Source: Ruminococcus sp. (lineage in GTDB: Bacteria > Bacillota > Clostridia > Oscillospirales > Ruminococcaceae). From it: 64,000 bases of DNA. Shown one piece after another: positions 13,204 through 26,972 of this stretch (position 1 is its first letter; each line of letters starts with the position of its first letter). The notes beneath the pieces were generated by a model. The model was not told the DNA's origin. It saw only the letters and a list, made by a program, of their open reading frames with translations, and made no database searches. Location: the NCBI GenBank assembly GCA_017542125.1, contig JAFXXU010000033.1, forward strand, positions 6,360 through 70,359, read 5' to 3'. The position numbers were made by a program, and so were the translations under genes.

Positions 13204-13232
13204 TTGACAAAATCCCACGGGGGAGTTATAAT
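13204..13232 (+). promoter_or_regulatory. consensus sigma-70 promoter of the ABC locus
   Basis: TTGACA (13204-13209), 17 nt spacer, TATAAT (13227-13232). Leader of about 230 nt to the first ATG. Confidence 0.7.
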
Positions 13233-13470
13233 TAAGATTAGCTAAGTGAGCCCTTTAGGGGCAAATACTGCCCTTTTGTCATCAAAATGACGGATTTTTT
13301 GAGCCCGTTTTAGTTAAAATAACAACATATTGACGCTGTTGAGCCCTCAGGCACAATATGTTCGATCTGATTTTGTTATTATGACGAAAACGGCATCCGG
13401 CAGCCCCTTTAAAGCGAAATTACCATCGCCTTTGTGTATTTTGCATCATTGGCGGGAAGGCCGAGGATAT

Positions 13471-14148
13471 ATGGGAAGCATCATTACGACGAACGGACTA
13501 TGCCGTGATTTTAAGATAGGTGACGGCAGCACGGTCTCCGCTCTGAAAAATGTGAATATCGAGATCGAGCAAGGCAAGCTGACCATTCTCAGGGGACGCT
13601 CGGGCAGCGGAAAGACTACGCTGATAAACATTCTCGGCGCACTTGACAAGCCCACAAAGGGCAGCGTCATGTTTGACGGGAGGGATATCACCAAGCTCTC
13701 TGAGCGCAAGCGGGACGATCTGAGGCGCTACGAGATGAGCTTCGTGTTCCAGTCGGTGGCGCTGATGAGCAGCATGAACGCCTATGAGAATGTGGAGTTC
13801 GGGCTGAGGCTCTCCAAGTTCCCCTACAACGACCGCGACAAGCGGGTGCGTGAGGTGATGAGGAACGTGGGGCTTGAAAAGCGAATGTTCCACAGGCCCA
13901 GCGAGATGTCCGGAGGCGAGCAGCAGAGAGTTGCTATTGCCAGAGCGATAGCCCACGACCCCAAGGTCGTCTTTGCAGACGAGCCTACCGCCGAGCTGGA
14001 TACCGCCACCGCGCTGCACGTGGTCAAGCTCTTCAAGGAGCTGGTGGCCAAGCAGGGAATGACGATCATTATGACTACCCACGACCCCAGTATGATAGAC
14101 ATAGCTGACAGGGTCTACACACTTGAGGACGGTGAGATCGTTGAGTAA
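13471..14148 (+). CDS. ABC transporter ATP-binding protein, MacB/LolD/FtsE-like
   Basis: Walker A GRSGSGKTT, signature MSGGEQQRVAIARA, Walker B VVFADEPTAELD, H-loop THD. ATG 13471 chosen within the ORF 13330-14148. Confidence 0.85.
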   Translation: MGSIITTNGLCRDFKIGDGSTVSALKNVNIEIEQGKLTILRGRSGSGKTTLINILGALDKPTKGSVMFDGRDITKLSERKRDDLRRYEMSFVFQSVALMSSMNAYENVEFGLRLSKFPYNDRDKRVREVMRNVGLEKRMFHRPSEMSGGEQQRVAIARAIAHDPKVVFADEPTAELDTATALHVVKLFKELVAKQGMTIIMTTHDPSMIDIADRVYTLEDGEIVE

Positions 14149-14242
14149 GGCGGAGGAGCAGAAGCTGATCCGGGGCATCTACGATGAGATAGATGACAAT
14201 TCCCCAGACGATAACAGTGTAACACAGCAAGATGACAGCTAT

Positions 14243-15130
14243 ATGATACGCTGTGAAAACCTGGTGAAAATTTATAAGACCGACGAGGTCGAGGTCGTGG
14301 CGCTCCAGGGCCTTGATCTTGACGTAAAGCGCGGGGAGCTTATGGCGATAGTCGGCAATTCGGGAAGCGGTAAATCAACGCTGCTGAATATGCTGGGCGG
14401 CCTCGATAAGCCCTCGGCGGGAAGCCTTCTGGTGGACGGCAAGAACCTGCTGAAATTCACCGATAAGGACTATATGCAGTACAAGCGGGATACCGTCGGG
14501 TTCGTGTGGCAGAACAATGCAAGGAACCTGGTACCCTATCTGTCAGCCGTCCAGAACGTGGAGCTGCCTATGCTGCTTAAAGGCAAGAAGCAGAGGCGGG
14601 CAAGAGCACTGGAACTGCTGGAAAAGGTGGGGCTCTCCCACAGAAAGAACTCAAGGCTCGACCAGATGTCGGGCGGCGAGCAGCAGAGAGTTGCGATAGC
14701 CATAGCGCTGGCAAACGACCCCAAGCTGCTGCTGGCAGACGAGCCCACCGGCTCGGTGGATACCAAGACCTCGAATATGATCCTGGATATATTCAAGGAT
14801 CTTAACCAGACCGAAAGGCTCACCATTGTGATCGTTACCCACGATATAAAGCTCTCCAAGAGGATCGACCGGGTAGTCGCCATAAGAGACGGGCGGACGA
14901 GCTCGGAGATCATCAGGAAGAAATCCTACGCCCAGGAGCTGGATGAGCTGGGCGAGCTGGCCGGGGATATCAGCGAGACCCACGAGGAGCTTGTGGTGCT
15001 CGACCGCTCGGGAAGGCTGCAGCTCCCCAAGGATTATATGGAGCAGCTGGGTATCAAGGGCGGCGACAAGGTCAAGGTAGAGCTCGACGAGGAATCGGGA
15101 AAGATGTTCCTGTTCCGCTCGGGCGAATAA
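14243..15130 (+). CDS. ABC transporter ATP-binding protein (MacB/LolD-like) with C-terminal AbrB/SpoVT-like domain
   Basis: GNSGSGKST, MSGGEQQRVAIAIA, LLLADEPTGSVD, THD. Tail GRLQLPKDYMEQLGIKGGDKVKVEL matches the swapped-hairpin pattern. Start is uncertain: the in-frame upstream stretch 14123-14242 has low GC3 and looks non-coding. Confidence 0.75.
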   Translation: MIRCENLVKIYKTDEVEVVALQGLDLDVKRGELMAIVGNSGSGKSTLLNMLGGLDKPSAGSLLVDGKNLLKFTDKDYMQYKRDTVGFVWQNNARNLVPYLSAVQNVELPMLLKGKKQRRARALELLEKVGLSHRKNSRLDQMSGGEQQRVAIAIALANDPKLLLADEPTGSVDTKTSNMILDIFKDLNQTERLTIVIVTHDIKLSKRIDRVVAIRDGRTSSEIIRKKSYAQELDELGELAGDISETHEELVVLDRSGRLQLPKDYMEQLGIKGGDKVKVELDEESGKMFLFRSGE

Positions 15131-15248: not shown

Positions 15249-18152
15249 GTGAAAAACACATTTTTAAAACGTGTTATTTCATCTGCACTTGCATTGACGC
15301 TGGCGGCAACCTGCAGCCTGTCGGCGTTTGCGGCAGAGAGCGGCGACGGAAATACCAAGCTGGATCTCTCGGCAGAGATCATTGATGCAAGCAACCGTGA
15401 AAACGCATATTCCAATTATGTCAAGAAATATGCGGATGCGCCCAGACCTCAGAAAGAGGTCGTCATCAACGGCGCCGACTTTGTCAGCTTCGGCGACGGC
15501 GCTGATGTAACGGTGGCAGACGTTGACGGCGAAAAGGGCGTCGCCAAGTGGGCAAATCAGGAGGGCACCCTCGATTACGAAGTCGAGATACCCGAGACGG
15601 GCGTGTACAACATCGAGGCCAAGTATGAGGCTCTCGCAGGCGGTACCACATCCGTCGAGTTTGCGCTGCTCATAGACGGCGTGTGCCCCTTCACGACTGC
15701 TTCGAGAATAGTCCTCCCCAAGAGATGGGTCAACAAGACCGAGATCCTCCAGGATGTCAGGGGCAACGATATCCGTCCCGGACAGATCGAGGAGGTCTGC
15801 TGGCAGGTAAATCCCATCAAGGATACCGACGGACTTTACAATGAACCGCTCGGCTTCTACTTTGAGCAGGGCAAGCATAAGATCACCCTTCGCTCCGCAA
15901 AGGCTCAGTTCGCGCTGGGCTACCTGAAGCTCTATCAGGCCAAGCAGCCTGAGCCCTATCAGGTCCCCGACCCTTCGGCGGTAGCAGGCTCGCACGCAGA
16001 GAGGATCCTCCTCGAGGGCGAGGCCGCTGATTATAAGTCGGACAGAACACTGTTCCCGACGGCGGACAGAAACTCCTACCTTACATCGTCTATCAACGGG
16101 CAGAGCCCGACCAAGACAAGATATAACACCATCGGCAAGGATAACTGGAACAAGGCCACTCAGGCTGCGACCTGGAAGTTCACCGCTCCTGCCTCCGGAT
16201 ACTATAAAATAGGTATCCGCGCAAAGCAGGATACGATGAGAGGAATGTATTCCAACAGGCGCCTGCTGATCGACGGCGTCGTACCCTGCAAGGAGTGCGA
16301 TCAGGTCAAGTTCTTCTACGGCACCGATTGGGAGCTCACCGTTCCTTCAATGGGCGACGAGCCGCTGTACTTCTACCTCGAGCAGGGCGAGCACGAGCTC
16401 ACTCTTGAGGCAGTTCCCGGCGAGATCGGCGAGATCATGGGCGATATCGACGAGATCGTTTATCAGGTAAACTTCTATTACCGCAACGTCCGTGCCATCA
16501 CCGGTCCTAACCCCGATGAGTACAACAACTATAATATCAAGGGCGCTATGCCTGATATCCTCACCGATTTCTCCAAGTACGCCAAGCAGCTCAGAGAGCA
16601 GATGGATAAGATCGAGAAGCTCTCCGGCAGCGGCGGAACCGAGGCGGTGACCCTGGACAAGCTGGCTATCGTGCTCGATAAGTGCGCAGCCAAGTCCGAG
16701 AGAATACCCAGCATGATGGGTCAGATCAAGGATAACGTTACCTCGGTTTCCTCCTGGGTGAACCAGTACCGTGAGCAGCCTCTCGAGATAGATATGATCG
16801 AGATCCTCACCGACGACGAGGAATTCACCAGCGCCGACAAGAGCTTCTTCAAGTCGGTGGCATTCGGCTTCAGGTCCTTCATCGGCTCCTTCTTCGAGGA
16901 TTATAACTCCCTCGCAGAGGATGACGAATCCGCTATGATCTGCTGGATCACCCTCGGCCGTGATAACGCCACCGTGATCCAGAACCTCATCAGCAATGAG
17001 TACAACCAGACCGCAAAGACCAAGGTTAACCTCAAGCTCGTTCAGACGGGTATCATCGAGGCTACCTTCGCCGGCAAGGGCCCCGACCTGGCGCTCTTCC
17101 TCGGCGGCGACTTCCCGATACAGCTTGCCGCACGAGACGTTCTGGTCAACCTGAAACAGTTTGACGACTATGAGGAAGTCATGAAACGGTTCTCACCGCA
17201 GGCAGGCGTCCTCTACGAGTATAACGGCGGTGCATACGGCCTGCCCGTATCACAGACCTTCCCGATGCTCTTCTACCGTTCGGATGTACTGAGCGAGTAC
17301 GGCATCAATCCCAAGACGGATCTCGCCACCTGGGACGGGCTCCTCGGAGTTCTCCCAACTCTCCAGAGAAATTACATGGAGATCGGCCTTATCCTTCCCG
17401 CAGGAAGCGTTATCTCGCCTGTTACCGAGTCGGGCAACACCTTCGCTACACTGCTGCTCCAGCAGGGCATCAACTACTATAACGAAGACCTGACCAAGAC
17501 CAACTTCGACAAGCAGGAGGCTATCGACGCCTTCGATACCTGGACGAAGTTCTATACCACCTACAGCTTCCAGCAGGCTTACGACGCTCTGACAAGATTC
17601 AGACAGGGCGATATGCCTATACTGATCCAGAACTACACCTTCTTCAATCAGCTGACCGTTACCGCTCCCGAGATCAAGGGCTGCTGGAACTTCCAGCCGA
17701 TACCCGGAACCGTTCAGGCTGACGGCAGCATCAACCACAGCTCCTGTTCCGCAGGCGCCGCGGCCATCATCTTCTCCTCACTCTCCGAGGATAAGCAGAA
17801 GGATGCATGGGAGTTCCTCAAGTGGTTCACCTCCACCGAGGCTCAGGTAAGCTACGGCAACGACATCGAGTCTATCGTTGGTACTCTCGGACGTTTCGAT
17901 ACCGCTAACCTCGAGGCTCTCGAGCAGCTCTCCTGGACCACCAGCGAGGTCGCTCTCCTTAAGGAGCAGCTCCTCTCGCAGGTAGAGATCCCCGTTATCC
18001 CCGCTTCCTACGGCGTAACGAGAAACCTGATGAACGCATTCAGAGAGACCGTCAACAACTCCGAGAATGCAAGAGATACCCTCTTCTGGTACAACAAGGA
18101 CATCAACGATGAGATCACTCGTAAGCGTGAGGATCTCGGACTCAACAAGTAA
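15249..18152 (+). CDS. secreted fusion protein: two CBM-like beta-sandwich modules plus family-1 extracellular solute-binding domain
   Basis: Signal peptide ending SAFA/AE. Two segments with a G.Y.I..(K/R)Y....G....(L)LIDGV pattern. The C-terminal ~430 aa look like a sugar solute-binding protein. GTG start with AAAGGTGGAAG Shine-Dalgarno. Confidence 0.7.
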   Translation: MKNTFLKRVISSALALTLAATCSLSAFAAESGDGNTKLDLSAEIIDASNRENAYSNYVKKYADAPRPQKEVVINGADFVSFGDGADVTVADVDGEKGVAKWANQEGTLDYEVEIPETGVYNIEAKYEALAGGTTSVEFALLIDGVCPFTTASRIVLPKRWVNKTEILQDVRGNDIRPGQIEEVCWQVNPIKDTDGLYNEPLGFYFEQGKHKITLRSAKAQFALGYLKLYQAKQPEPYQVPDPSAVAGSHAERILLEGEAADYKSDRTLFPTADRNSYLTSSINGQSPTKTRYNTIGKDNWNKATQAATWKFTAPASGYYKIGIRAKQDTMRGMYSNRRLLIDGVVPCKECDQVKFFYGTDWELTVPSMGDEPLYFYLEQGEHELTLEAVPGEIGEIMGDIDEIVYQVNFYYRNVRAITGPNPDEYNNYNIKGAMPDILTDFSKYAKQLREQMDKIEKLSGSGGTEAVTLDKLAIVLDKCAAKSERIPSMMGQIKDNVTSVSSWVNQYREQPLEIDMIEILTDDEEFTSADKSFFKSVAFGFRSFIGSFFEDYNSLAEDDESAMICWITLGRDNATVIQNLISNEYNQTAKTKVNLKLVQTGIIEATFAGKGPDLALFLGGDFPIQLAARDVLVNLKQFDDYEEVMKRFSPQAGVLYEYNGGAYGLPVSQTFPMLFYRSDVLSEYGINPKTDLATWDGLLGVLPTLQRNYMEIGLILPAGSVISPVTESGNTFATLLLQQGINYYNEDLTKTNFDKQEAIDAFDTWTKFYTTYSFQQAYDALTRFRQGDMPILIQNYTFFNQLTVTAPEIKGCWNFQPIPGTVQADGSINHSSCSAGAAAIIFSSLSEDKQKDAWEFLKWFTSTEAQVSYGNDIESIVGTLGRFDTANLEALEQLSWTTSEVALLKEQLLSQVEIPVIPASYGVTRNLMNAFRETVNNSENARDTLFWYNKDINDEITRKREDLGLNK

Positions 18153-18169
18153 GAAAGGAGGAGAATTCT

Positions 18170-19096
18170 ATGGACAATACCCCTGTTAATAAGCAAAGCA
18201 AGTTTCGTTATACATGGCATATGATGAAGGTCAACAAGGGCTGCTACGGACTTCTCGCTCCGTTCATGATCCTGTTCACGATCTTCACCGTCATCCCCGT
18301 AGTAATGTCACTTCCTATGGGCTTTACGAACTTCAACATGATCCAGACCCCCAAGTGGGTAGGCTTCTCCAACTTCTATACGCTGTTCCTTAACGACGAC
18401 GTATTCCTGATCGCCATCAGGAACACCCTGATCTTCGCGATCTTCACCGGCCCGTTCTCTTACGTTCTCAGCTTCTTCATCGCATGGCTGATCAACGAGA
18501 TGCACCCCTTCCTCAAAACATTCTTCACCTTCGTGTTCTACGCTCCTTCGATGACTACCTCCGTATACGTTACCTGGCAGCTGATCCTCTCGGGCGACTC
18601 CTACGGATACCTGAACGCGATCATGATGGATATCGGGCTTTTCAATTCTCCCGTACAGTTCCTGACCGATACCAACTACATCTTACCCGTAGTTATCATC
18701 GTTCAGCTGTGGATCTCGATGGGCGCAGGCTTCCTTGCGATCCGTGCAGGCTTCCAGAACATCGACAAGTCGATGTACGAGGCGGGCGCTATCGAGGGCA
18801 TCAAGAACCGCTGGCAGGAGCTCTTTACGATCACTATCCCCTCGATGGGACCCCAGCTCCTGTTCGCAGCCGTAATGCAGATCTCCGCTTCCTTTACCGT
18901 AGGTCAGGTAGGTCAGATGCTCGTAGGTCTTCCTTCGACAGACTATGCGGCTCATACCATTATGAACCACGCCACCGACTACGGCTCGATACGATACGAA
19001 ATGGGTTATGCATCGGCGATATGCTTCGTACTGTTCATGGCCATGCTCCTAGCCAATAAGGGAGTTAACTGGCTGCTGGCCAAATACATTGATTAA
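18170..19096 (+). CDS. carbohydrate ABC transporter permease (MalF/UgpA-like)
   Basis: 6 TM segments. EAA loop YEAGAIEGIKNRWQELFTITIP. Confidence 0.85.
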   Translation: MDNTPVNKQSKFRYTWHMMKVNKGCYGLLAPFMILFTIFTVIPVVMSLPMGFTNFNMIQTPKWVGFSNFYTLFLNDDVFLIAIRNTLIFAIFTGPFSYVLSFFIAWLINEMHPFLKTFFTFVFYAPSMTTSVYVTWQLILSGDSYGYLNAIMMDIGLFNSPVQFLTDTNYILPVVIIVQLWISMGAGFLAIRAGFQNIDKSMYEAGAIEGIKNRWQELFTITIPSMGPQLLFAAVMQISASFTVGQVGQMLVGLPSTDYAAHTIMNHATDYGSIRYEMGYASAICFVLFMAMLLANKGVNWLLAKYID

Positions 19097-20059: not shown

Positions 20060-21670
20060 GTGAATAAAGCACTAAAAAGACTACTCAGCCTGACAATGGC
20101 AGCTGTCACCGCAATGACGATGACTCTGACTGCTTTTGCGGATGAGCCGTACAATTCCTATAACTACGATTCCTGGGATGATGCGATCCCCTCGCAGAGC
20201 GCTTACAGGGTAGAGACCACTATCACCGGCGCCGAGATGAAGATCGACCGCCTCAGGGATCCCGCAGACCCGCTCTATATGGGCGAGGATGCCCCCCTTA
20301 CCCTCAGCGAAGCAAGAGATATGTTCTGCTATGAGGACGACAAGGAGATCTGGATCGCAGATTCCAAGAACAACCGCCTCCTTGTTATCGACACCGATAC
20401 ATATGAGCTTACGGCGGTGTATACCGGCGTTGCAGGCTCCTCTGCCGACGGCTTCAACTCGCCCCAGGGCGTGTTCGTAACACACAGCGCTTCCCTCGAT
20501 AAGAAGGTAGTGTTCATCGCGGATACCGAAAACAGCAGAGTGGTCAAGGCCACTATCAAGGATAACAGGACCCTTGAGTGCGTTTACGAGTATACCAAGC
20601 CTACCAAGGAACTCTACACCGTACAGACCTTCAACCCCAAGAAGGTGCTGGTCGATAAGGCCGAGAATGTTTACTGCGTAGTTAATGCAGTAAATACCGG
20701 TTCGGTGCTCTTCGCCGTGAACGGCGACTTCAAGGGCTTCTACGGCGCAAACCGTGTTCAGGTAACTGCCGCGGTAATCGCTCAGAAGATCTGGAGAGCT
20801 ATCGCCTCCGAGGAACAGCTCCAGGGTATGAAGCGTAACGTTCCTGTTGAGTATGCAAACTTCGATATCGACAACCTCGGCTTCATCTATACCGTTACCG
20901 AGCAGAACATCGATACCGATGCCGTTAAGAAGCTCAACCCCGCAGGCTATAACATCTGGAACAACGTAAGGGGCAACAACTATCAATTCGGCGACCTCGT
21001 CGGATATATGTATGACCCCGTTACCAACGGTAACCACAGCTCGACGCTGACCGATATCGACATCAGCTCCACGGGCTTCATCAATGTTCTCGACTTTGAG
21101 ACGGGCAAGGTATTCCAGTACGATAAGGAATGTAACCTCGTTTGCCTCTTCGGAACAAAGAACTCCACCTCCGACCAGAGAGGTTCGCTGCTGAACCCCA
21201 GCGCGGTGGAGACAATGGGCAACAGAGTATTCGTGCTCGACAGCGCCAAGAACGATATCACCGTATTCAAGGAGACTCAGTTCGGTAAATACGTCCACAG
21301 CGCATTTATGCTCTACGACGAAGGCCGCTATGTTGAGGCCAAGGCCGACTGGGACGAGGTCATCAAGAGAGACGGCGGCTATACCTACGCCTACGTCGGC
21401 CTCGGAAAGGCTGCCCTGAATAACGAGGAGTATAACAAGGCTCTTAAGTATTTCAAGACCGCATATGACCAGGAGGACTACGATAAGGCCTTCAAGTATG
21501 CGAGAGAGGCTTTCCTGAGAGATCACTTCGTTCTGATCATCGTGATCGTCGTGCTGCTGATAGCGCTGATCGTCACAAAGAACATCCTGAAGAAGAAGGG
21601 CATAAAGATCTTCAGGAAGAGATCTAAACCAAAACCGCGCCGTATTTCAGGCGGAGAAGGGGAGGGATAA
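20060..21670 (+). CDS. secreted NHL-repeat beta-propeller / TPR-like protein with C-terminal TM anchor
   Basis: Signal peptide. Repeated ADSKNNRLLVID / ADTENSRVVKA / LDSAKNDITVF motifs. TPR-like helical segment, then a TM helix and a basic tail. Confidence 0.6.
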   Translation: MNKALKRLLSLTMAAVTAMTMTLTAFADEPYNSYNYDSWDDAIPSQSAYRVETTITGAEMKIDRLRDPADPLYMGEDAPLTLSEARDMFCYEDDKEIWIADSKNNRLLVIDTDTYELTAVYTGVAGSSADGFNSPQGVFVTHSASLDKKVVFIADTENSRVVKATIKDNRTLECVYEYTKPTKELYTVQTFNPKKVLVDKAENVYCVVNAVNTGSVLFAVNGDFKGFYGANRVQVTAAVIAQKIWRAIASEEQLQGMKRNVPVEYANFDIDNLGFIYTVTEQNIDTDAVKKLNPAGYNIWNNVRGNNYQFGDLVGYMYDPVTNGNHSSTLTDIDISSTGFINVLDFETGKVFQYDKECNLVCLFGTKNSTSDQRGSLLNPSAVETMGNRVFVLDSAKNDITVFKETQFGKYVHSAFMLYDEGRYVEAKADWDEVIKRDGGYTYAYVGLGKAALNNEEYNKALKYFKTAYDQEDYDKAFKYAREAFLRDHFVLIIVIVVLLIALIVTKNILKKKGIKIFRKRSKPKPRRISGGEGEG

Positions 21671-21674: not shown

Positions 21675-22304
21675 ATGTATGAATTTACTCAAATGGGCTG
21701 GCTTAAACATGTTATTTTCCACCCCGTAGAAGGCTTTGAGGATCTCAGGTGGAAAAAGCAGGGCTCAATAAAGATCGCAATGATCATCGTATTCCTGCTC
21801 TTCGTTGCAATGGTAGCTGACAGACAGCTGACAGGCTTCCAGTTCAATACCGCTTATGTAAAGGTGTTCAACATAGTTCCGCTGCTGGTGCAGTCGGTAG
21901 TCTACTTCTTCACCTGGGTAATAGGCAACTGGGCGCTCTGTACGCTGTTCGACGGTGAAGGAACACTGAAAAAGATCTGCATATATTCGGCTTACGCACT
22001 GGTGCCGTATATCGTATGCACATTCCTTGCCGTATTCGTTTCCAATTTCATAGTTCAGGAAGAAAGCATCTGGATGAACGCGATCTCCTACCTCGGGATC
22101 ATCTGGTCGGTAGTCCTGATGGTGCAGGCAATGAAGGCTGCCCACCAGTACACCTTCGGCAAGACGCTGGTATCGATGTTCTTCACGATCGTAGCAATGC
22201 TGCTGATACTCTTCCTGGCGATCCTGCTGCTCTCGCTCTTCCAGCAGGTATACGCATTCGGATATTCGATCTATACCGAGATCTCTTATCGAATCAGAGG
22301 CTGA
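21675..22304 (+). CDS. Yip1-like integral membrane protein
   Basis: 209 aa with about 5 TM segments. The N-terminal HP.EGFEDL segment is typical of bacterial Yip1-domain proteins as I remember them. Confidence 0.5.
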   Translation: MYEFTQMGWLKHVIFHPVEGFEDLRWKKQGSIKIAMIIVFLLFVAMVADRQLTGFQFNTAYVKVFNIVPLLVQSVVYFFTWVIGNWALCTLFDGEGTLKKICIYSAYALVPYIVCTFLAVFVSNFIVQEESIWMNAISYLGIIWSVVLMVQAMKAAHQYTFGKTLVSMFFTIVAMLLILFLAILLLSLFQQVYAFGYSIYTEISYRIRG

Positions 22305-22325
22305 TAAAGAATGGTGGTGTAAAAA

Positions 22326-24716
22326 ATGGCTGACAGAAAATTCAAAAAAGCAATAGTGTTTGCCCTGGTACTTTCCATGATGATGCCTCTTGGTTCGATG
22401 GCCGCATCCTCCTCCGAGGACGAGGCAACTACAGCAACGGCCGATGCAGCCGCTGCCAGCGAGGGTGACAGCTCCGAAAAGCCTGAGAAGGAAGAAAAGG
22501 AATCCAAGCTCACCGAAAGGATCTCCGATGAGGAAGCCATCGCGCTTGAGACTTGCGAGCAGGTAGCCTCCAACGATTACCTTACGATGTATATGGATTC
22601 AAAGAACGACAGATGGGGCGTAAAGGTTAATAAATCCGGCGCGTTCTTCTGGAGCTCTCCTATCAACGTAAGAGCTGAGGAGACCATCGTCGATCCAGTA
22701 AAGAATTCGATGATGAAGGATACCAAGCGCCAGCAGATCGCTTCGAGCTGCGCTATCAGAGTCGGCGACCTGAGGCAGGAGAAGAGGACTGAGTCCCCCG
22801 CTCCCGTTTACTCCAACAAGGCATCCATCAAGTATACCAAGGAAAACGACGGTATCGCTATCAAGTACAACTACAAGGGTCAGGGCGTGTCCTTCACGAT
22901 GCACGTTAAGCTGGAGGATGACCACGTTTACGCCTATGTGGACAGCGCAGATGTCGTTGAGGAGAATACCAGCTCGACAGACGGTATGATCCTTACCAAG
23001 CTGCTCATCGCTCCCAGCTTCGGCGCGGTCAGCATCGAGAACATGGACGGCTCCGAGTCCGAGGGCTATATGATAGTTCCCGATGGAAGCGGCGCGGTCA
23101 TCAAGTACAATAACGGCAGACAGAACTACGCACAGTATTCGCAGAAGATCTACGGCAGAGACTATACTCCCGTTCCTCTTACCGCTCCCCGTGTAACAGA
23201 GCAGGCATTCCTGCCCGTTATCGCTTCGGTATCCGGCAAGAACGGCTTCGTGGCAGTAGCCTCCGACGGCGATGCGAATGTCTACGCAAAGGCAAAGGTC
23301 GGCAGGCAGGATAATCAGGTTTACAATAACGTATACTTCGAGTTTGAAGCCAAGAGTACCGACTCCTTCTTCATGAGCGGTGATAACTCCAACAAGATCA
23401 ACGTTTTCGAGAAGGGCGATATCAAGACTCCCCGCTTCGGCGTTAAGTATTATCCCATAAGCCTCGACCGTGATATCAACTACGCTGACTGCGCAGAGGT
23501 CTACAGGAACTACCTTATAAAGGAAAAGGGCCTTACCTCCAGCGTCAGTGCAAATGACAACAAGTTCTACGTTGACTTCTACGGCGGCGTCCTCAAGAGG
23601 ACTTCCATCCTGGGTCTCCCCTTCAACCTAAAGACCGAGATAACCGGCTTTGACCAGGCAGGCGAGATCATCAGCAAGCTCCGTGACCTCGGCGTGGGCG
23701 ATGCAGTCGTTGACTACAATGACTGGACCAACAACTCCATCAAGAAGAAGATCTCAGTAAGCGCCAGCGCCTCGGGTACCCTCGGCGGCAACGGCGACCT
23801 GAAGGACCTTATGGGCACCTCGGGCGTTGATCTCTTCCCCTCGATGGATAACTTCACCATGGAATCCGGTACCTGGGGCTACCTGACATTCACGAATACC
23901 GCAACGAGAATATCGAACGCTTATTCAAGACAGGTAGAGTACAGCCCCGCCTACGGCGTTGCTCTTAACGGAGTTTCGCCCGCCCTCGTAGCTCCCGGCA
24001 CATATGTTGATATCTTCGACGATATGATCGATAGCTATAAGGACAAGGGCTATGACAAGATCGGCTTCGGTAAGCTCTCTAGGGGCCTCGTAAGTGACTT
24101 CTCAACTAAGAACGGTGCTTCGAGAAACGATGCGATGAACATCCTCATTGACGGCTATAAGAGAGCAAAGGAGGAGATAGGCTCTGTCATCTGCGACGGT
24201 GCGAACGCTTATCTGATCCCCTATGCTTCTCAGATCACCGATATCCCCGTTTACTCCAGCGGATATAACCTGGTAGATTACGACATCCCCTTCTATCAGA
24301 TGGTCGTTCACGGCTATGTGCCTTATGCGACCAAGGCTATCAATGCAAGCTCCAGCACCGGCGAGACCTTTATGCTCGCGCTGGCAGCAGGCTCGGCAGT
24401 CCACTACGATATGACCTATGTGGAGTCCTCCGAGCTGCAGGATACCGCCTATAACGATCTCTACTATACCAATTACGAGGGCTGGCTGGAGATGTCCGCC
24501 AACCAGTACAAGATCGCCAACGAGCTGCTCGCACCGGTATCGGATATGATAATATCCAAGTATGAGATCTCCGAGGACGGTAACGTATTCACCACCACCT
24601 ATACTAAGGATGGCAAGGACGTTGTGGTCGAGGTAGATAAGGCGAATATGACAGCCAAGTGCAACGGCAAGACCATTGATCTGGCAGATGCCATCGAAGG
24701 AGGTGCGGAAGGCTGA
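22326..24716 (+). CDS. large secreted protein, DUF5696-like (possible glycoside-hydrolase-like barrel)
   Basis: 796 aa. Signal peptide plus acidic linker. C-terminal DYDIPFYQMVVHGYVPYAT-type motif. Family name from memory only. Confidence 0.5.
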   Translation: MADRKFKKAIVFALVLSMMMPLGSMAASSSEDEATTATADAAAASEGDSSEKPEKEEKESKLTERISDEEAIALETCEQVASNDYLTMYMDSKNDRWGVKVNKSGAFFWSSPINVRAEETIVDPVKNSMMKDTKRQQIASSCAIRVGDLRQEKRTESPAPVYSNKASIKYTKENDGIAIKYNYKGQGVSFTMHVKLEDDHVYAYVDSADVVEENTSSTDGMILTKLLIAPSFGAVSIENMDGSESEGYMIVPDGSGAVIKYNNGRQNYAQYSQKIYGRDYTPVPLTAPRVTEQAFLPVIASVSGKNGFVAVASDGDANVYAKAKVGRQDNQVYNNVYFEFEAKSTDSFFMSGDNSNKINVFEKGDIKTPRFGVKYYPISLDRDINYADCAEVYRNYLIKEKGLTSSVSANDNKFYVDFYGGVLKRTSILGLPFNLKTEITGFDQAGEIISKLRDLGVGDAVVDYNDWTNNSIKKKISVSASASGTLGGNGDLKDLMGTSGVDLFPSMDNFTMESGTWGYLTFTNTATRISNAYSRQVEYSPAYGVALNGVSPALVAPGTYVDIFDDMIDSYKDKGYDKIGFGKLSRGLVSDFSTKNGASRNDAMNILIDGYKRAKEEIGSVICDGANAYLIPYASQITDIPVYSSGYNLVDYDIPFYQMVVHGYVPYATKAINASSSTGETFMLALAAGSAVHYDMTYVESSELQDTAYNDLYYTNYEGWLEMSANQYKIANELLAPVSDMIISKYEISEDGNVFTTTYTKDGKDVVVEVDKANMTAKCNGKTIDLADAIEGGAEG

Positions 24717-25894
24717 TGAGTGAATTTGAAAAGGACCTGTTAGAGCAGGAGGACGAAGCAAAGGAAGCTTTGGAAGAAGCTGAAGATGCTGTGACCGAGC
24801 AGGCTGAGGACGCTGTCCGGGAGGCAGAGGACGAAGCCGCCGAGGCTGCCGAAGAGGCTGCTGAGGAGCTTGTAGAGGCTGCCGAAGAAGCTGAAGAGCT
24901 TTCCGTCATCCCCGAGGAGACCGTTCAGGAGCTCGCCGAGATCCCGGACGATGAGCCTGAAAGCAGCTCCGTCAGGAGCGGAAAGGCTGCCAAGGGCGCC
25001 AGGATCTCTTACGAGAGAAAGAAGCGTCTCTACGGCTACGGCTTCATAGCACTCTGGTTCGTCGGAACAGTTTACTTCTTCCTCTACCCGCTGATCGTAT
25101 CTCTCGTTTACTCCTTCCACAAGACTACGGTCGGCACCAGCGGAATGGAGCTCTCCGACAGAGGCTTCGACAACTACATCAGAGCGTTCAGGCGTGACCC
25201 CAACTACACCAAGGCGCTCGTTGACACACTTTCCAACACCGCACTCAAAACACCTCTGATCTTGGTATTCTCGATCTTCATCGCTGTAATACTCAATCAG
25301 AAGTTCAGAGGAAGGACCTTCGCAAGAGCAGTATTCTTCCTCCCCGTTATCATCGCTACCGGACCGGTTATCGATATCATCACCGGTAATATGTCCACCA
25401 GCGGTACTTCGGGCACCGCTGAGCAGTTCTCCACTCTGTTCGAGGCTAATCTCGTTGACGAGCTGCTGAACTTCCTCGGCATCTACAACATAAGCGAGCG
25501 ACTTACAGAAATAATAAACACACTGACTTCGGATATATTCAATCTGGTGTGGAACTCGGGTATCCAGATACTACTGTTCCTGTCAGCCCTGCAGGGCATA
25601 CCATTCTCCGCGAAGGAGGCAGCCCAGATGGAGGGTGCCACCGGATGGGAGTATTTCTGGAAGATCACGATCCCGTACATCAGCCCGCAGATCCTTACCT
25701 GTCTCGTATATACCGTTGTCGACTCCTTCGTAGACCCCGGCAACCAGGTAATGGAGATAGTTCTTTCCAAGGCAAGCAACTGGGAGCATGGCTACATGGC
25801 AGCTATGGCTTGGGCGTACTTCGCGATCATCGGAATTGCGCTTGCGATAATCGTGGCGATCGTCAACAAGTTTGTTTACTATGAAGTTGAGTAA
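24716..25894 (+). CDS. carbohydrate ABC transporter permease (MalF-like) with ~90-aa highly acidic N-terminal extension
   Basis: TGATG overlap with the upstream gene. EAA loop KEAAQMEGATGWEYFWKITIP. N-terminal E/A/D-rich stretch. Confidence 0.8.
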   Translation: MSEFEKDLLEQEDEAKEALEEAEDAVTEQAEDAVREAEDEAAEAAEEAAEELVEAAEEAEELSVIPEETVQELAEIPDDEPESSSVRSGKAAKGARISYERKKRLYGYGFIALWFVGTVYFFLYPLIVSLVYSFHKTTVGTSGMELSDRGFDNYIRAFRRDPNYTKALVDTLSNTALKTPLILVFSIFIAVILNQKFRGRTFARAVFFLPVIIATGPVIDIITGNMSTSGTSGTAEQFSTLFEANLVDELLNFLGIYNISERLTEIINTLTSDIFNLVWNSGIQILLFLSALQGIPFSAKEAAQMEGATGWEYFWKITIPYISPQILTCLVYTVVDSFVDPGNQVMEIVLSKASNWEHGYMAAMAWAYFAIIGIALAIIVAIVNKFVYYEVE

Positions 25895-25906
25895 GGGGGG
25901 ATTATA

Positions 25907-26932
25907 GTGGCAACTAAAAAAGAAGAAAAACAGTTTGAAAAAGAGCGCAAGGCCGCTATAAAAGCCCGTCATAAGAGAATGAAGGAAGAGGGTCTCGAAA
26001 AATACCTGACCCCGGAACAGATAAGATACAACAGGAATAAGGCTATCGTGGGTTCGGTTTGGCCCATATTCAGATTCCTGATCCTGTTCGGACTCTGCTT
26101 CGTAATCCTTTACCCTCTGATCTACATGATATCCACCGCATTCAGACCCAATGAGCAGATGAATGACCCTTCGGTCATCTGGCTGCCCAAGAGCTTCACG
26201 CTCGACAACATCAAGCAGACCTGGAAGGTCATGAAGTTTGAGGAGACTATCCTCACAACTCTGAGAATGAACGTCATCGCGTCGATACTTCAGGTGATCA
26301 CCTGCGCTATCACCGGCTACGGCTTCGCAAGATTCCAGTTCAAGTTCAAGGGACTCCTCTTTGCGATAGTTGTAATGATGATCATCGTACCTCCCCAGAT
26401 CATCACCATCCCGCTGTATATGCAGTTCAGATTCTTCTTCGGCAGCACCAGCATTTCCCTGATCGACACCGGTTGGGCGATGTATATGCCTGCGATGTTT
26501 GCCAACGGTCTGAGAGCAGGTCTGTTCATCTTCATCTTCCGACAGTTCTTCCGAGGGCTGCCTAAGGAGCTGGAGGATGCTGCGTATCTGGACGGATGCG
26601 GGCCCTTCAAGACCTTCCTTGTGATCATGGTACCTAATGCAAGGACTGCGTTCCTGACAGTATTCCTGTTCTCGATAGTTTGGTACTGGAATGACTTCTA
26701 TGTATCGAGCTCGTTCTTCAACAACACCCACACGGTATCGCTGATGCTTAAAAACCTCGGCGCACAGCTGAGCGTTGACCTGTTCAACAATCAGACACCG
26801 TCAGCCAGACAGCTTATTGTATGGCTGGAAGCGGGCTGCGTGCTTTCGATAACGCCGCTGCTGGTAATGTACATATTCCTGCAAAGGTACTTCATCGAAG
26901 GTATAGAGCGTTCCGGTATCACCGGTATGTAA
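25907..26932 (+). CDS. carbohydrate ABC transporter permease (MalG-like) with Lys/Glu-rich N-terminal tail
   Basis: EAA loop LEDAAYLDGCGPFKTFLVIMVP. GTG start. Confidence 0.85.
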   Translation: MATKKEEKQFEKERKAAIKARHKRMKEEGLEKYLTPEQIRYNRNKAIVGSVWPIFRFLILFGLCFVILYPLIYMISTAFRPNEQMNDPSVIWLPKSFTLDNIKQTWKVMKFEETILTTLRMNVIASILQVITCAITGYGFARFQFKFKGLLFAIVVMMIIVPPQIITIPLYMQFRFFFGSTSISLIDTGWAMYMPAMFANGLRAGLFIFIFRQFFRGLPKELEDAAYLDGCGPFKTFLVIMVPNARTAFLTVFLFSIVWYWNDFYVSSSFFNNTHTVSLMLKNLGAQLSVDLFNNQTPSARQLIVWLEAGCVLSITPLLVMYIFLQRYFIEGIERSGITGM

Positions 26933-26941
26933 TACTGAACC

Positions 26942-26972
26942 AAAGGCTCTCCGAAAGGGGAGCCTTTTTGTT
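26942..26972 (+). terminator. intrinsic terminator closing the ABC locus
   Basis: AAAGGCTCTCC-GAAA-GGGGAGCCTTT followed by TTGTT. Confidence 0.8.

What the first reader, a model, noticed from the sequence alone, without database searches (positions are those of the whole stretch)
13204..26972. Ten-gene composite ABC locus mixing exporter-type ATPases with importer-type permeases and three unassigned envelope proteins
One apparent operon runs from a consensus promoter (13204) to a terminator (26942), with mostly tiny or overlapping gene junctions. It encodes two MacB/LolD/FtsE-type ATPases but no FtsX/MacB-type permease. It also encodes one giant secreted CBM-like + solute-binding fusion and two separate pairs of MalF/MalG-type permeases; all four carry EAA loops. 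Between the two permease pairs sit a secreted NHL-propeller/TPR protein with a C-terminal anchor, a Yip1-like polytopic protein and a 796-aa DUF5696-like secreted protein. CUT1-type sugar importers normally use a MalK/MsmK-type ATPase with a C-terminal regulatory domain, and one permease pair per binding protein. Here the ATPase type, the stoichiometry (2 ATPases, 4 permeases, 1 binding protein) and the three embedded envelope proteins do not fit that textbook architecture. No glycoside hydrolase of a named family and no transcription regulator is present. I believe similar gene sets occur in other Clostridia or Paenibacillus, but I know of no functional description.
Basis: partly seen in the sequence, partly recalled or inferred. 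Interest (0 to 1): 0.75.

Follow-up and report, generated by a model that had tools for sequence, protein, structure and literature searches.

The report
Twin sugar importer plus orphan pump ATPases
The ten-gene operon is real, but it is two things joined: a widespread, biochemically untested eight-gene cassette for capturing and importing plant-fibre sugars, and two ATPase genes that belong to a separate MacB-type pump whose membrane parts are encoded elsewhere.

Summary
The ten genes, promoter and terminator are as described. The only correction is that ATPase A starts at ATG 13471. The "one odd ABC machine" reading does not hold.

Genes 3-10 form an ancient eight-gene cassette: giant CBM+SBP, MalF/G pair 1, NHL-TPR propeller, Yip1 anchor, DUF5696, MalF/G pair 2. 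It is colinear in Oscillospiraceae, Lachnospiraceae and Paenibacillaceae. By gene order and annotation it also matches Caldicellulosiruptor bescii xloEFG-NHL-"GH129"-axoFGE, which is xylan-induced and lies in a genome where CUT1 transport depends on shared MsmK. DUF5696 models as a GH129/GH31-like glycosidase fold.

The two ATPases occur with the cassette only in some Oscillospiraceae lineages. Their closest relatives elsewhere flank an MFP plus a roughly 970-aa double FtsX permease (Paenibacillus), or two giant FtsX permeases (Streptomyces). In two Ruminococcus-type lineages, an ATPase-less MFP-FtsX pair lies directly downstream of the cassette. The permease EAA loops do not differ between lineages with and without these ATPases.

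So the ATPases are most likely type VII pump motors co-transcribed with a CUT1 twin importer that uses an MsmK-type ATPase. Why they head this operon is unresolved.

The parts
13188..13195 (.). Palindrome AAACGTTT (within gcAAACGTTTaac) abutting the -35 box. It is a candidate LacI-family/cre-type operator.
   Evidence: It is conserved as T/G-AAACGTTT-A/T directly upstream of -35 in about 40 related loci whose upstream flanks differ. It resembles the experimentally bound XynR operator GTAAACGCTTAC upstream of the C. bescii cassette (PMC12285236). Binding here is inferred.
13204..13232 (+). Sigma-70-type promoter: TTGACA, 17 nt, TATAAT.
   Evidence: It matches 12 of 12 positions. The -35 and -10 boxes are conserved across relatives.
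13233..13470 (+). A leader of about 230 nt with a conserved start (TAAGATTAGCTAAGTGAGCCC) and the inverted repeat ACATATTG (13325-13332) / CAATATGT (13354-13361).
   Evidence: Alignment of relatives. The stem has 2 of 8 pairs with compensatory changes but weak energy. There is no Rfam match. Its function is unknown.
13471..14148 (+). ATPase A (226 aa from ATG 13471). It is a LolD/MacB-type NBD with intact Walker A, signature, Walker B-Glu and H-loop motifs.
   Evidence: Domain and profile hits. It is 48% identical to the first ATPase of the P. cellulosilyticus A-MFP-FtsX2-B operon. It is 62-95% identical in all A/B-carrying relatives.
14123..15130 (+). ATPase B. It is a LolD/MacB-type NBD with an acidic N-terminal tail and a C-terminal SpoVT/AbrB-like module (residues about 286-332). 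The exact start codon is uncertain (14123 or 14141).
   Evidence: Domain and profile hits. It is 61% identical over its full length to P. cellulosilyticus B, and 52% identical to Streptomyces B encoded next to giant FtsX permeases. The AF2 model has low confidence; its C-terminal secondary-structure order fits the AbrB type.
15249..18152 (+). Giant secreted binding protein: signal peptide, two tandem CBM-like beta-sandwich repeats, a helical linker, and a family-1 SBP domain (about 560-900).
   Evidence: The SBP domain is nearest to the oligosaccharide-binding proteins CbpB, Lin1841 and MBP. Orthologues of 965-1030 aa head the cassette in every lineage.
18170..19096 (+). Permease F1 (MalF/UgpA-like) with an EAA loop, YEAGAIEGIKNRWQE.
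   Evidence: It is 45-48% identical to F1 of Paenibacillus and Butyrivibrio but only about 24% identical to F2.
19114..20013 (+). Permease G1 (MalG/UgpE-like) with an EAA loop, EAAKVDGAG.
20060..21670 (+). Extracytoplasmic NHL beta-propeller + TPR protein with a signal peptide and a C-terminal TM anchor.
   Evidence: It is fused to the Yip1 domain in Paenibacillus (697-719 aa proteins). Its apparent counterpart in C. bescii is Athe_0177, annotated 'NHL repeat-containing protein'.
21675..22304 (+). Yip1-family 5-TM membrane protein. It is the likely membrane base for the NHL-TPR protein.
   Evidence: The gene is always adjacent to, or fused with, the NHL gene.
22326..24716 (+). DUF5696 protein. 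It has a signal peptide or anchor, an acidic linker, an N-terminal beta-sandwich, a (beta/alpha)8 barrel and a C-terminal beta-sandwich. It is a predicted glycosidase-like enzyme.
   Evidence: Pfam E = 7e-151. AF2 gives pLDDT 74 and pTM 0.79. Foldseek best matches are GH129 entries 8rzk and 5wzn (E 1e-22 to 1e-19; TM 0.54-0.56 normalised to the query, 0.64-0.71 to the target), then GH36, GH31 and GH97. Conserved carboxylates are D253 (41/41), D279, D591 and D651.
24716..25894 (+). Permease F2 (MalF/UgpA-like) with an acidic N-terminal extension of about 90 aa and an EAA loop, EAAQMEGATGWEYFWKITIP.
25907..26932 (+). Permease G2 (MalG/GlcU-like) with an EAA loop, DAAYLDGCGPFKTF.
26942..26967 (+). 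Intrinsic terminator closing the operon.
   Evidence: It has an 11-bp stem with 6 GC pairs, followed by a T-run. The next genes (YpsA, LytR, NusA, IF-2) are unrelated housekeeping genes.

Best explanation
The operon is a composite of two systems.

(1) Genes 3-10 are an ancient eight-gene "twin CUT1" cassette for capture and uptake of hemicellulose-type oligosaccharides.
- Capture (inferred): a giant surface binding protein with two CBM-like modules, and an NHL-TPR propeller held on a Yip1 membrane base, capture glycan at the cell surface.
- Trimming (inferred from fold): a tethered DUF5696 enzyme with a GH129/GH31-like fold trims it.
- Import (inferred from family membership and from the C. 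bescii data): two distinct MalF/MalG-type permease dimers import the products.
- Energy (inferred): as in the other lineages that carry the cassette, the permeases are most likely energised by a shared MsmK/UgpC-type ATPase encoded outside the window.

(2) Genes 1-2 are the two different nucleotide-binding subunits (A, and B with an AbrB-like tail) of a separate type VII (MacB-like) ABC transporter. Its membrane parts are a membrane-fusion protein and a roughly 950-990-aa double FtsX permease. These are not in this window. They lie immediately downstream of the cassette in two related lineages.

All ten genes are transcribed from one promoter that carries a LacI-type operator-like box. The pump's motor is therefore made together with the sugar cassette.

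What is shown: gene content, colinearity, orthology of A/B with FtsX-linked NBDs, and fold similarity.
What is inferred: substrate class, hydrolase activity, which ATPase drives which permease, and regulation.
For: The cassette is an ancient unit.
- All ten genes are colinear in about 40 Ruminococcus/Oscillospiraceae loci with different flanks.
- Genes 3-10 are colinear at 24-48% identity in Butyrivibrio, other Lachnospiraceae, Paenibacillus and Gorillibacterium. F1/G1 and F2/G2 are each separately orthologous across these taxa.
- DUF5696 covers 4,433 clusters at 50% identity.

The context is carbohydrate use.
- Neighbours include GH43, GH35, GH42, GH26, GH2, GH130, LacI and histidine kinase/AraC regulators.
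- The SBP domain is nearest to oligosaccharide-binding proteins.
- C. bescii Athe_0174-0181 has the same order (SBP-F-G-NHL-GH129-F-G-SBP). It is xylan-induced and XynR-bound, in a genome where no CUT1 system has its own ATPase and deleting msmK severely impairs growth on xylan and other oligo- and polysaccharides.
- DUF5696 has a glycosidase-like fold.

The ATPases belong to a different transporter family.
- Their best profiles are LolD, FtsE, DevA and MacB.
- The best hit of ATPase B among 72,556 plasmids is 61% identical over the full length. It lies in a P. cellulosilyticus operon A-MFP-FtsX2(971 aa)-B. Streptomyces and Kitasatospora have A-FtsX-FtsX-B.
- The Ruminococcus-type FtsX2 has that same Paenibacillus operon as its only plasmid hit.
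- An ATPase-less MFP-FtsX2 pair lies directly downstream of G2 in the human-gut species group and in the distant locus L096.

The ATPases are not needed by the cassette elsewhere.
- They are absent in L102, Lachnospiraceae and Paenibacillaceae. One Paenibacillus locus has UgpC.
- The EAA coupling loops of all four permeases are the same in lineages with and without A/B.
Against: - In every lineage that has A/B, they are the first two genes of the cassette operon. They are 31-118 nt from the SBP gene where this was measured (window, L096, L097), behind a conserved promoter and operator.
- The presumed cognate MFP-FtsX2 is adjacent in only 2 of about 13 lineages. It is absent from the 37 kb downstream and 13 kb upstream here. 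NBD genes are rarely separated from their permease genes unless they are shared between transporters.
- No MsmK-type ATPase was seen for this organism, because only 64 kb is available.
- The presence of MFP-FtsX2 elsewhere in this genome is not shown.
- Homology of C. bescii Athe_0178/0177 to DUF5696/NHL-Yip1 rests on annotation and gene order, not on a sequence comparison made here.
- Hydrolase activity of DUF5696 is untested. No GH profile matches by sequence.
Confidence: 0.6

Rival explanations
1. Co-option or sharing. In the Ruminococcus-type lineages the LolD/MacB-type ATPases have become the dedicated, or additional, motors of the two MalF/MalG permease pairs. Examples would be an A-homodimer on one pair and a B-homodimer (joined by its AbrB-like tails) on the other, or an A/B heterodimer on both. 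This would replace or supplement MsmK. It would be the first CUT1-type importer driven by a type VII-family NBD.
For: - A/B always head the cassette operon and are never found apart from it in the lineages that have them. MFP-FtsX2 is usually not adjacent.
- Two ATPase genes match two permease pairs.
- Both NBDs have complete catalytic motifs.
- By sequence, importer NBDs (Mtb OppD/DppD, MetN, MalK-like) score only about 4-50 bits below the best MacB/LolD-type hits. Compatibility is therefore not excluded.
- The promoter carries a sugar-regulator-type box.
Against: - The EAA loops show no change correlated with the presence of A/B.
- The same cassette works without such ATPases elsewhere, and the shared MsmK is needed for oligo- and polysaccharide growth in C. 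bescii.
- The orthologues of A/B are encoded with FtsX permeases.
- To my knowledge there is no precedent for a type I importer using this NBD family.
Confidence: 0.2
2. One integrated 12-component machine. The type VII transporter (A/B + FtsX2 + MFP) works physically with the cassette. It would use ATP-driven mechanotransmission on the outside of the membrane to activate or position the tethered DUF5696 enzyme, the NHL-Yip1 unit or the giant binding protein. This would resemble FtsEX activating PcsB/CwlO/EnvC, or YknYZ working with YknX and the Yip1 protein YknW.
For: - The NBD genes and the MFP-FtsX2 genes bracket the cassette in two distant lineages.
- All four YknWXYZ component types (Yip1, MFP, MacB-type NBD, FtsX) are then present in one locus.
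- The independent Paenibacillus A-MFP-FtsX2-B operon ends with a family-1 sugar-type SBP gene 5 nt after B.
Against: - The cassette, including Yip1, exists in many lineages without any type VII genes nearby.
- The type VII system exists without the cassette in Paenibacillus and actinomycetes.
- Adjacency of MFP-FtsX2 is lost in most lineages.
- There is no interaction evidence.
Confidence: 0.12
3. The cassette does not acquire nutrients. Instead it processes or recycles the cell's own envelope or extracellular glycans. The flanking genes here include a GT2 glycosyltransferase, LytR-CpsA-Psr and SecDF.
For: The window's flanks carry envelope-related genes and no CAZyme or sugar-catabolic genes.
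Against: - The flanks are not conserved among relatives.
- In other lineages the neighbours are plant-polysaccharide CAZymes and sugar regulators.
- The C. bescii counterpart is induced by xylan.
Confidence: 0.05

Closest known systems
Caldicellulosiruptor (Anaerocellum) bescii xylan degradation locus, Athe_0174-0181: xloEFG - Athe_0177 (NHL repeat protein) - Athe_0178 (putative GH129) - axoFGE (Rodionov et al. 2021, PMC8579813; PMC12285236)
   Same: - The order is the same: SBP, permease pair, NHL protein, GH129-like secreted protein, second permease pair.
- Both are CUT1-type permeases.
- A LacI-family operator of GTAAACGCTTAC type lies upstream.
- The context is polysaccharide use.
   Different: - C. 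bescii has a second SBP (AxoE) after the second pair and no ATPase gene in the locus. There MsmK is shared, and its deletion severely impairs growth on oligo- and polysaccharides.
- The window has one SBP and two LolD/MacB-type ATPase genes in front.
- Sequence orthology to the C. bescii proteins could not be computed here. It is inferred from annotation and gene order.
- The C. bescii functions are themselves predictions supported by transcriptomics.
CUT1-family ABC sugar importers (MalEFGK2, UgpBAEC, MsmEFGK; shared MsmK/MsmX ATPases in Firmicutes)
   Same: - A family-1 SBP.
- MalF/MalG-type six-TM permeases with EAA loops.
- An ATPase that is often encoded elsewhere and shared between systems.
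   Different: - Two permease pairs in one cassette.
- A binding protein of about 970 aa with CBM-like modules.
- Three conserved extracytoplasmic or membrane accessory proteins sit between the pairs.
- The only ATPases in the operon are not of MalK type and lack a TOBE domain.
MFP-dependent MacB-type (type VII) ABC transporters of Gram-positives: S. pneumoniae Spr0693-0695 (PDB 5xu1) and B. subtilis YknWXYZ
   Same: - ATPase A's best PDB sequence hit is 5xu1.
- LolD, MJ0796, MacB and YtrE follow for both ATPases.
- Relatives encode an HlyD/YknX-like MFP and an FtsX permease with a MacB periplasmic core domain.
- A Yip1 protein (like YknW) is in the locus.
   Different: - There are two different NBDs, one with an AbrB-like tail.
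- The permease is a fused double FtsX of about 950-990 aa.
- The NBD genes are separated from the MFP/FtsX genes by a 12-kb sugar cassette, or the MFP/FtsX genes are absent from the neighbourhood, as here.
- The Yip1 protein belongs to the cassette, not to the pump.
GH129 glycoside hydrolases (B. bifidum NagBb alpha-N-acetylgalactosaminidase; Zobellia ZgGH129 3,6-anhydro-D-galactosidase) and clan GH-D relatives (GH31, GH36, GH97)
   Same: - The three-part architecture matches: N-terminal beta-sandwich, (beta/alpha)8 barrel, C-terminal beta-sandwich.
- Foldseek E is 1e-22 to 1e-19.
- Conserved Asp residues follow predicted barrel strands 4 and 6 (D591, D651). This is where clan D enzymes carry the nucleophile and the acid/base. 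This placement is an inference from the secondary structure.
   Different: - Identity is 10-14%.
- There is no hit to any GH Pfam model or to any PDB sequence.
- Catalytic residues were not mapped by structural alignment.
- The substrate is unknown.

Membership tests
CUT1 ABC sugar importer | Extracytoplasmic family-1 solute-binding protein | tested here: met
   SBP_bac_8 E = 1e-20 and SBP_bac_1 E = 3e-14 on residues about 577-881. The nearest PDB sequences are oligosaccharide SBPs.
CUT1 ABC sugar importer | MalF/MalG-type permease pair with EAA coupling loops | tested here: met
   There are two pairs. They match BPD_transp_1 and the UgpA/UgpE/GlcT/GlcU/MalG profiles, below the equivalog cut-offs. 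EAA loops are present in all four.
CUT1 ABC sugar importer | MalK/MsmK/UgpC-type ATPase with a C-terminal TOBE-like regulatory domain | tested here: not met
   Neither ATPase has such a domain. They are only 33% identical to the Paenibacillus UgpC, and their best profiles are LolD, FtsE and MacB. There is no MalK-type gene in the window. Such an ATPase may be encoded elsewhere, as is usual in Firmicutes.
CUT1 ABC sugar importer | Demonstrated SBP-dependent sugar uptake | not testable with these tools
   This needs transport assays.
Type VII (MacB/LolCDE/FtsEX-like) ABC transporter | NBD of the LolD/MacB/FtsE clade | tested here: met
   Top NCBIfam and PDB hits are of this clade. No equivalog cut-off is reached, and the Mtb OppD/DppD importer NBDs score about the same. 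Orthology to NBDs encoded with FtsX permeases is shown.
Type VII (MacB/LolCDE/FtsEX-like) ABC transporter | FtsX-type permease with an extracytoplasmic MacB_PCD domain encoded with the NBDs | tested here: not met
   There is none in the 64-kb window. One is present directly downstream of the cassette in the L015 group and in L096, and between A and B in Paenibacillus.
Type VII (MacB/LolCDE/FtsEX-like) ABC transporter | Membrane-fusion (HlyD/YknX-like) adaptor | tested here: not met
   It is absent from the window. It is present in relatives L015 and L096 and in Paenibacillus L098.
Glycoside hydrolase family 129 | Sequence membership (match to a family profile or to characterised members) | tested here: not met
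   There is no GH Pfam hit, even at E = 10. A profile of 32 DUF5696 sequences finds no PDB sequence at E = 1.
Glycoside hydrolase family 129 | Fold: beta-sandwich + (beta/alpha)8 + beta-sandwich, similar to NagBb/ZgGH129 | tested here: met
   The AF2 model has pTM 0.79. Foldseek top 9 hits are all GH129, with E 2e-22 to 1e-18 and TM 0.53-0.71.
Glycoside hydrolase family 129 | Catalytic carboxylate pair in register with NagBb/ZgGH129 | tested here: inconclusive
   D253, D279, D591 and D651 are conserved in 35-41 of 41 diverse members. No residue-level structural alignment was available.
B. subtilis YknWXYZ-type system | Yip1 protein + MFP + MacB-type ATPase + FtsX permease in one operon | tested here: not met
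   The window has Yip1 and the ATPases but no MFP or FtsX. Yip1 travels with the sugar cassette, not with the pump genes.
C. bescii XDL-type twin CUT1 cassette (xloEFG-NHL-GH129-axoFGE) | Gene order SBP - F - G - NHL(/Yip1) - GH129-like - F - G | tested here: met
   Window genes 3-10 compared with Athe_0174-0180 as annotated in the supplement of PMC8579813.
C. bescii XDL-type twin CUT1 cassette (xloEFG-NHL-GH129-axoFGE) | Sequence orthology of each component to Athe_0174-0181 | not testable with these tools
C. bescii XDL-type twin CUT1 cassette (xloEFG-NHL-GH129-axoFGE) | Second SBP after the second permease pair | tested here: not met
   A terminator follows G2 here. Extra SBPs of 440-580 aa are present next to the cassette in most Lachnospiraceae and Paenibacillus loci examined.

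The most novel reading that the evidence does not exclude
A type VII (MacB/FtsEX-like) mechanotransmitting ABC system is functionally coupled to a twin CUT1 importer in fibre-degrading Oscillospiraceae. The system consists of heterodimeric NBDs A/B, a fused double FtsX permease and an MFP. The coupling could take either of two forms. Its NBDs could be shared with MalF/MalG-type permeases, which would be cross-class NBD sharing. Alternatively, it could use ATP to drive an extracellular step, such as activating or positioning the tethered GH129-like DUF5696 enzyme or the NHL-Yip1 unit. That would explain why the pump's motor genes are locked to the head of the sugar operon, and why its membrane genes bracket the cassette in two distant lineages.
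Probability: 0.25. Interest if true: 0.85.

Novelty: new variant of a known kind. Interest (0 to 1): 0.5.

Why it matters
- The eight-gene cassette is one of the most widely conserved carbohydrate-uptake modules of Bacillota that still lacks biochemistry. DUF5696 alone spans about 4,400 clusters at 50% identity.
- It pairs two importers with a candidate new glycosidase family (GH129-like fold) and an NHL-Yip1 surface unit.
- Defining its substrate and the roles of the accessory proteins would improve annotation of rumen and gut fibre degraders such as Ruminococcus albus-like bacteria, Butyrivibrio, Roseburia relatives, Paenibacillus and Caldicellulosiruptor.
- The Ruminococcus-type arrangement, with pump ATPase genes welded to the front of the cassette, is a clean natural test of two questions. 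Can ABC motor subunits be shared across transporter classes? Does a MacB-like pump take part in polysaccharide use?

Tried and rejected
1. Homologue search with ATPase B in the 5.8-billion-protein set returned only relatives of at least 79% identity. It gave no view of distant contexts. The plasmid tblastn supplied that view instead.
2. The single-sequence genome scan for DUF5696 found only 4 close loci. The metagenome scan kept only relatives of at least 50% identity.
3. The AF2 model of ATPase B had low confidence (pLDDT 53), so it was not used for fold search. The AbrB-like assignment rests on the Pfam MazE_antitoxin hit and the conserved motif.
4. ECF-type EcfA/EcfA' pair: rejected. The ECF profile scores are lower and there is no EcfT.
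5. Riboswitch or other known RNA in the 230-nt leader: no Rfam match. The conserved inverted repeat has only weak covariation support.
6. Literature searches for DUF5696, 'YIP1 family protein' + SBP, NHL + Ruminococcus, and MsmK + Ruminococcus found nothing relevant.
7. Envelope-glycan role suggested by the flanking GT2, LytR and SecDF genes: rejected because the flanks are not conserved.
8. The SBP of the Paenibacillus type VII operon shows no specific similarity to the cassette SBPs.

Full report
**Observation**

The region holds ten + strand ORFs with short or overlapping junctions. A perfect 12/12 sigma-70 promoter lies at 13204-13232 and a strong intrinsic terminator at 26942-26967. No terminator lies in the only sizeable gap, the 118 nt between ATPase B and the binding-protein gene.

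- two ABC ATPases, whose best profiles are LolD, FtsE, DevA and MacB, all below the curated cut-offs;
- a 967-aa family-1 solute-binding protein;
- four MalF/MalG-class permeases;
- an NHL+TPR protein;
- a Yip1 protein;
- a DUF5696 protein (E = 7e-151).

All four permeases carry EAA-type loops. The NHL protein has a signal peptide and a C-terminal TM. Yip1 has five TMs. DUF5696 and the binding protein have N-terminal signal or anchor segments. The N-terminal half of the binding protein contains two tandem CBM-like repeats. Its C-terminal half is closest to the oligosaccharide-binding proteins CbpB, Lin1841 and MBP.

Two corrections apply. ATPase A almost certainly starts at ATG 13471, with a GAGG RBS, giving 226 aa. 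Orthologues are 225-231 aa and upstream alignments converge on that ATG. ATPase B ends in a conserved SpoVT/AbrB(MazE)-like module, EELVVLDRSGRLQLPKDYMEQLGIKGGDKVKVELDEE.

The flanking genes are housekeeping: SecDF, SseB-like, GT2 and TatD upstream, and YpsA, LytR, NusA and IF-2 downstream. No FtsX permease or MalK-type ATPase is encoded in the 64-kb window.

**Conservation of the ten genes**

All ten genes are colinear in about 40 loci from rumen and gut Ruminococcus/Oscillospiraceae, including R. albus. DUF5696 identity to the window's copy runs from 50% to 70% in these loci. The flanks are not conserved: only one locus shares the downstream genes. The block therefore moves as a unit. The membrane and cytoplasmic parts are much better conserved (ATPases 72-95%, F1/G1 77-96%) than the extracytoplasmic proteins (51-81%).

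**The eight-gene core is much older than the ten-gene block**

A tblastn of DUF5696 against plasmids found two distant copies. Both lie in the same order: giant SBP (977-986 aa), F1, G1, NHL, Yip1, DUF5696, F2, G2.
- On Butyrivibrio fibrisolvens pNP243, a GH43 gene and a histidine kinase/response regulator lie in front and two ordinary SBPs behind. There is no ATPase.
- On a Paenibacillus cellulosilyticus chromid, NHL and Yip1 are fused into one 719-aa protein. A UgpC/MalK-type ATPase gene lies directly upstream.

F1, G1, F2 and G2 are each orthologous across these taxa (33-48% identity), whereas F1 against F2 is only about 24%. The two permease pairs are therefore an ancient, fixed feature and not a recent duplication.

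Six more contexts show the same core next to GH43, GH35, GH42, LacI, GH26, GH2, a GDSL esterase, extra SBPs and two-component regulators, and without ATPase genes. They come from an Acetatifactor-like organism, other Lachnospiraceae-type metagenome contigs, Paenibacillus aceti, a second NHL::Yip1-fusion (Paenibacillus-type) contig, and Gorillibacterium. An exhaustive profile search counts 4,433 DUF5696 clusters at 50% identity.

**What DUF5696 is**

An AlphaFold2 model built on 32 homologues (pLDDT 74, pTM 0.79) shows an N-terminal beta-sandwich, a (beta/alpha)8 barrel and a C-terminal beta-sandwich. Foldseek against the PDB returns GH129 enzymes as the nine best matches: Zobellia ZgGH129 and Bifidobacterium NagBb. 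E-values are 2e-22 to 1e-18, with TM-scores of 0.53-0.56 normalised to the query and 0.64-0.71 normalised to the target. GH36, GH31 and GH97 follow.

Sequence methods see nothing. There is no PDB hit with a family profile and no GH Pfam hit even at E = 10.

Across 41 diverse members the conserved carboxylates are D253 (invariant, in the motif GY-VPDGSGA), D279, D591 and D651. D591 and D651 follow predicted barrel strands 4 and 6, where clan GH-D enzymes place the nucleophile and the acid/base. This is an inference from secondary structure, not from a residue-level alignment.

DUF5696 is thus best described as a candidate new glycosidase family with a GH129-like fold. Its activity is untested.

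**Literature**

No paper in the library mentions DUF5696. However, Rodionov et al. 2021 (PMC8579813) describe the C. bescii xylan degradation locus as xloEFG - X - GH129 - axoFGE. [quoted passage not shown] Both transporters are predicted CUT1 systems for xylo- and arabinoxylo-oligosaccharides.

According to the authors:
- The proximal genes of the locus are among those induced about 10-100-fold on xylan.
- No CUT1 system in that genome has its own ATPase.
- Deleting the shared msmK severely impairs growth on xylan, cellulose, cellobiose and pectin, but not on monosaccharides.
- The LacI-family regulator XynR binds the operator actaGTAAACGCTTACgata upstream of Athe_0174 with Kd 161 nM (PMC12285236).

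The gene order and annotations match the core found here. I could not retrieve the C. bescii sequences, so this orthology is inferred.

**The promoter region**

In the Ruminococcus-type loci, the sequence directly upstream of the -35 box of the ATPase A promoter is a conserved palindrome. It reads (T/G)(T/C)AAACGTTT(A/T); in the window it is gcAAACGTTTaac, with its core at 13188-13195. The -35 and -10 boxes are conserved too. The box is of the same type as the XynR operator, and also cre-like. This suggests sugar-responsive control of the whole operon, ATPase genes included.

The leader of about 230 nt has a conserved start and an inverted repeat, ACATATTG/CAATATGT. Covariation support for that repeat is only weak, and there is no Rfam match.

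**The ATPases**

By profile and by PDB sequence search, both ATPases sit with the MacB-like/MJ0796/LolD/YtrE group. For ATPase A the best hit is 5xu1, the S. pneumoniae MacAB-like pump. The margin over importer NBDs is modest:
- The M. tuberculosis OppD/DppD importer NBDs score about the same.
- MetN and MalK-like proteins score about 15-50 bits lower.

Sequence class alone is therefore weak evidence. Gene context is stronger.

1. Two distant lineages carrying the cassette also have the A+B pair directly upstream of the giant SBP: L096 (DUF5696 34% identical) and L097 (32%). Another lineage at the same distance, L102 (32%; SBP 45%, F1 60%), has the cassette without them.
2. In L096, and in a human-gut species group (L015-L066, L050, L084), a membrane-fusion protein and a 945-991-aa double FtsX permease lie just downstream of G2. 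The fusion protein is HlyD/YknX-like and the permease has a MacB periplasmic core domain. No ATPase gene of their own accompanies them. In L015 no terminator separates them from G2.
3. The best hit of ATPase B among 72,556 plasmids is a P. cellulosilyticus gene that is 61% identical over the full length, AbrB-like tail included. It lies in the operon A-like ATPase (48% identical to A) - MFP - 971-aa double FtsX - B-like ATPase - SBP. Streptomyces and Kitasatospora have A - FtsX (about 1,100 aa) - FtsX (900-990 aa) - B.
4. Conversely, the Ruminococcus-type FtsX2 has exactly one plasmid homologue, and it is that same Paenibacillus permease.

A and B are therefore orthologues of the two NBDs of a conserved type VII transporter built on giant or double FtsX permeases.

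**Do A/B nevertheless drive the MalF/MalG permeases here?**

Arguments for:
- They are never separated from the cassette in the lineages that have them.
- They are its first genes, behind a conserved sugar-type promoter.
- Their presumed FtsX partner is adjacent in only 2 of about 13 lineages, and is absent from 13 kb upstream and 37 kb downstream here.

Arguments against:
- The cassette functions without them in many lineages. The C. bescii genome relies on MsmK for CUT1 transport, and one Paenibacillus locus has UgpC beside the cassette.
- The EAA coupling loops of all four permeases are the same in lineages with and without A/B. For G2, the window has LEDAAYLDGCGPFKTF and L102, which lacks A/B, has LEDAAYLDGCSPLKTF. 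There is therefore no sign that the docking partner changed.

I rate "MsmK-type ATPase elsewhere; A/B serve FtsX2" at about 0.6. I rate co-option or sharing at about 0.2, a physically integrated 12-component machine at about 0.12, and an envelope-glycan role for the cassette at about 0.05.

**Working model**

Inferred steps are marked.
1. A LacI-type regulator or CcpA controls one transcript from 13204 (inferred).
2. The giant binding protein, with its CBM-like modules and SBP, and the NHL-TPR propeller on its Yip1 base hold hemicellulose fragments at the membrane surface (inferred). In Paenibacillus the propeller and Yip1 are fused.
3. The tethered DUF5696 glycosidase-like enzyme trims these fragments (inferred from fold).
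4. Two different MalF/MalG dimers import the products (family assignment is shown; substrates are inferred). Context elsewhere points to xylan or arabinoxylan (C. bescii, and GH43 in Lachnospiraceae) or to mannan (GH26, GH2, GH130), so specificity probably varies by lineage. For this window it is unknown.
5. ATPases A/B are made at the same time and most likely power an MFP-FtsX2 pump encoded elsewhere. The purpose of that pump is unknown.

**Novelty and interest**

The core is a known kind: a CUT1 importer within a Gram-positive polysaccharide-utilisation locus. It has been annotated and studied by transcriptomics in Caldicellulosiruptor. Its constant eight-gene architecture, its breadth across Bacillota and the GH129-like nature of DUF5696 have not been analysed as such in the literature I could search. 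None of the accessory proteins has been characterised.

The Oscillospiraceae variant, with type VII NBD genes fused to the front of the operon and the pump's membrane genes sometimes at its end, appears to be undescribed. It is a new variant of a known kind. It is of moderate interest as it stands. It would be of high interest if NBD sharing across ABC classes, or pump-assisted extracellular glycan processing, were shown.

Noticed in passing
window 13233-13470: The ATPase A gene has a 5' leader of about 230 nt whose first ~30 nt are conserved (TAAGATTAGCTAAGTGAGCCCTTT). It contains a conserved inverted repeat, ACATATTG..N21..CAATATGT, at 13325-13361. Relatives also carry repeated TTGTACAAA/TGCACAAA boxes. 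There is no Rfam family match. Two of the 8 stem pairs show compensatory changes. It could be an operator pair or an RNA hairpin.
   Followed up: partly
L098 (P. cellulosilyticus plasmid NZ_CP054609.1, 244038-251165); L099, L100 and L101 (Streptomyces, Kitasatospora): There is an apparently uncharacterised, widely distributed type VII ABC family. It has two different NBDs, the second with a C-terminal AbrB/SpoVT-like tail, flanking giant (900-1,100 aa) or double FtsX permeases, with or without an MFP. In Paenibacillus the operon ends with a family-1 sugar-type SBP gene 5 nt after the B gene.
   Followed up: partly
window 24716-24990 (first ~90 codons of permease F2): Permease F2 has an acidic, low-complexity cytoplasmic N-terminal extension of about 90 aa, rich in E, A and D. 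Its sequence is poorly conserved among relatives: most tblastn alignments start at residue 88.
   Followed up: no
window 21640-21670 and 24690-24716: The NHL protein and DUF5696 both end in Gly/Glu-rich tails (…SGGEGEG and …EGGAEG). G792 and G793 of DUF5696 are invariant. The simplest explanation is that the GGAGG ribosome-binding site of the next, translationally coupled gene lies inside the coding sequence.
   Followed up: partly
window 38819-43975: A second, unrelated ABC system is present: ATPase, ABC-2 permease, ABC_transp_aux (GldG-like)/DUF7088 protein and DUF4340 protein. This is a four-gene set of the 'gliding-type' ABC-2 architecture.
   Followed up: no
window 11866-12639 (-) and 35195-35989 (+): Two TatD-family DNase paralogues lie within 23 kb of each other.
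   Followed up: no
window 44314-45732 (-): This 472-aa ORF has no Pfam match at E <= 1e-5. An ORF on the opposite strand (44611-45585) overlaps it, so it is not clear which one is real.
   Followed up: no
window 52124-56788: A chemotaxis gene cluster (CheA, CheR, CheB) is present, so the organism is probably motile or chemotactic.
   Followed up: no
L096 14491-15480; L102 13021-13575: A GH130 (mannoside phosphorylase-type) gene directly follows the cassette in two distant lineages. This hints at mannan-type substrates there, in contrast to the GH43 gene in front of the Lachnospiraceae cassettes.
   Followed up: no
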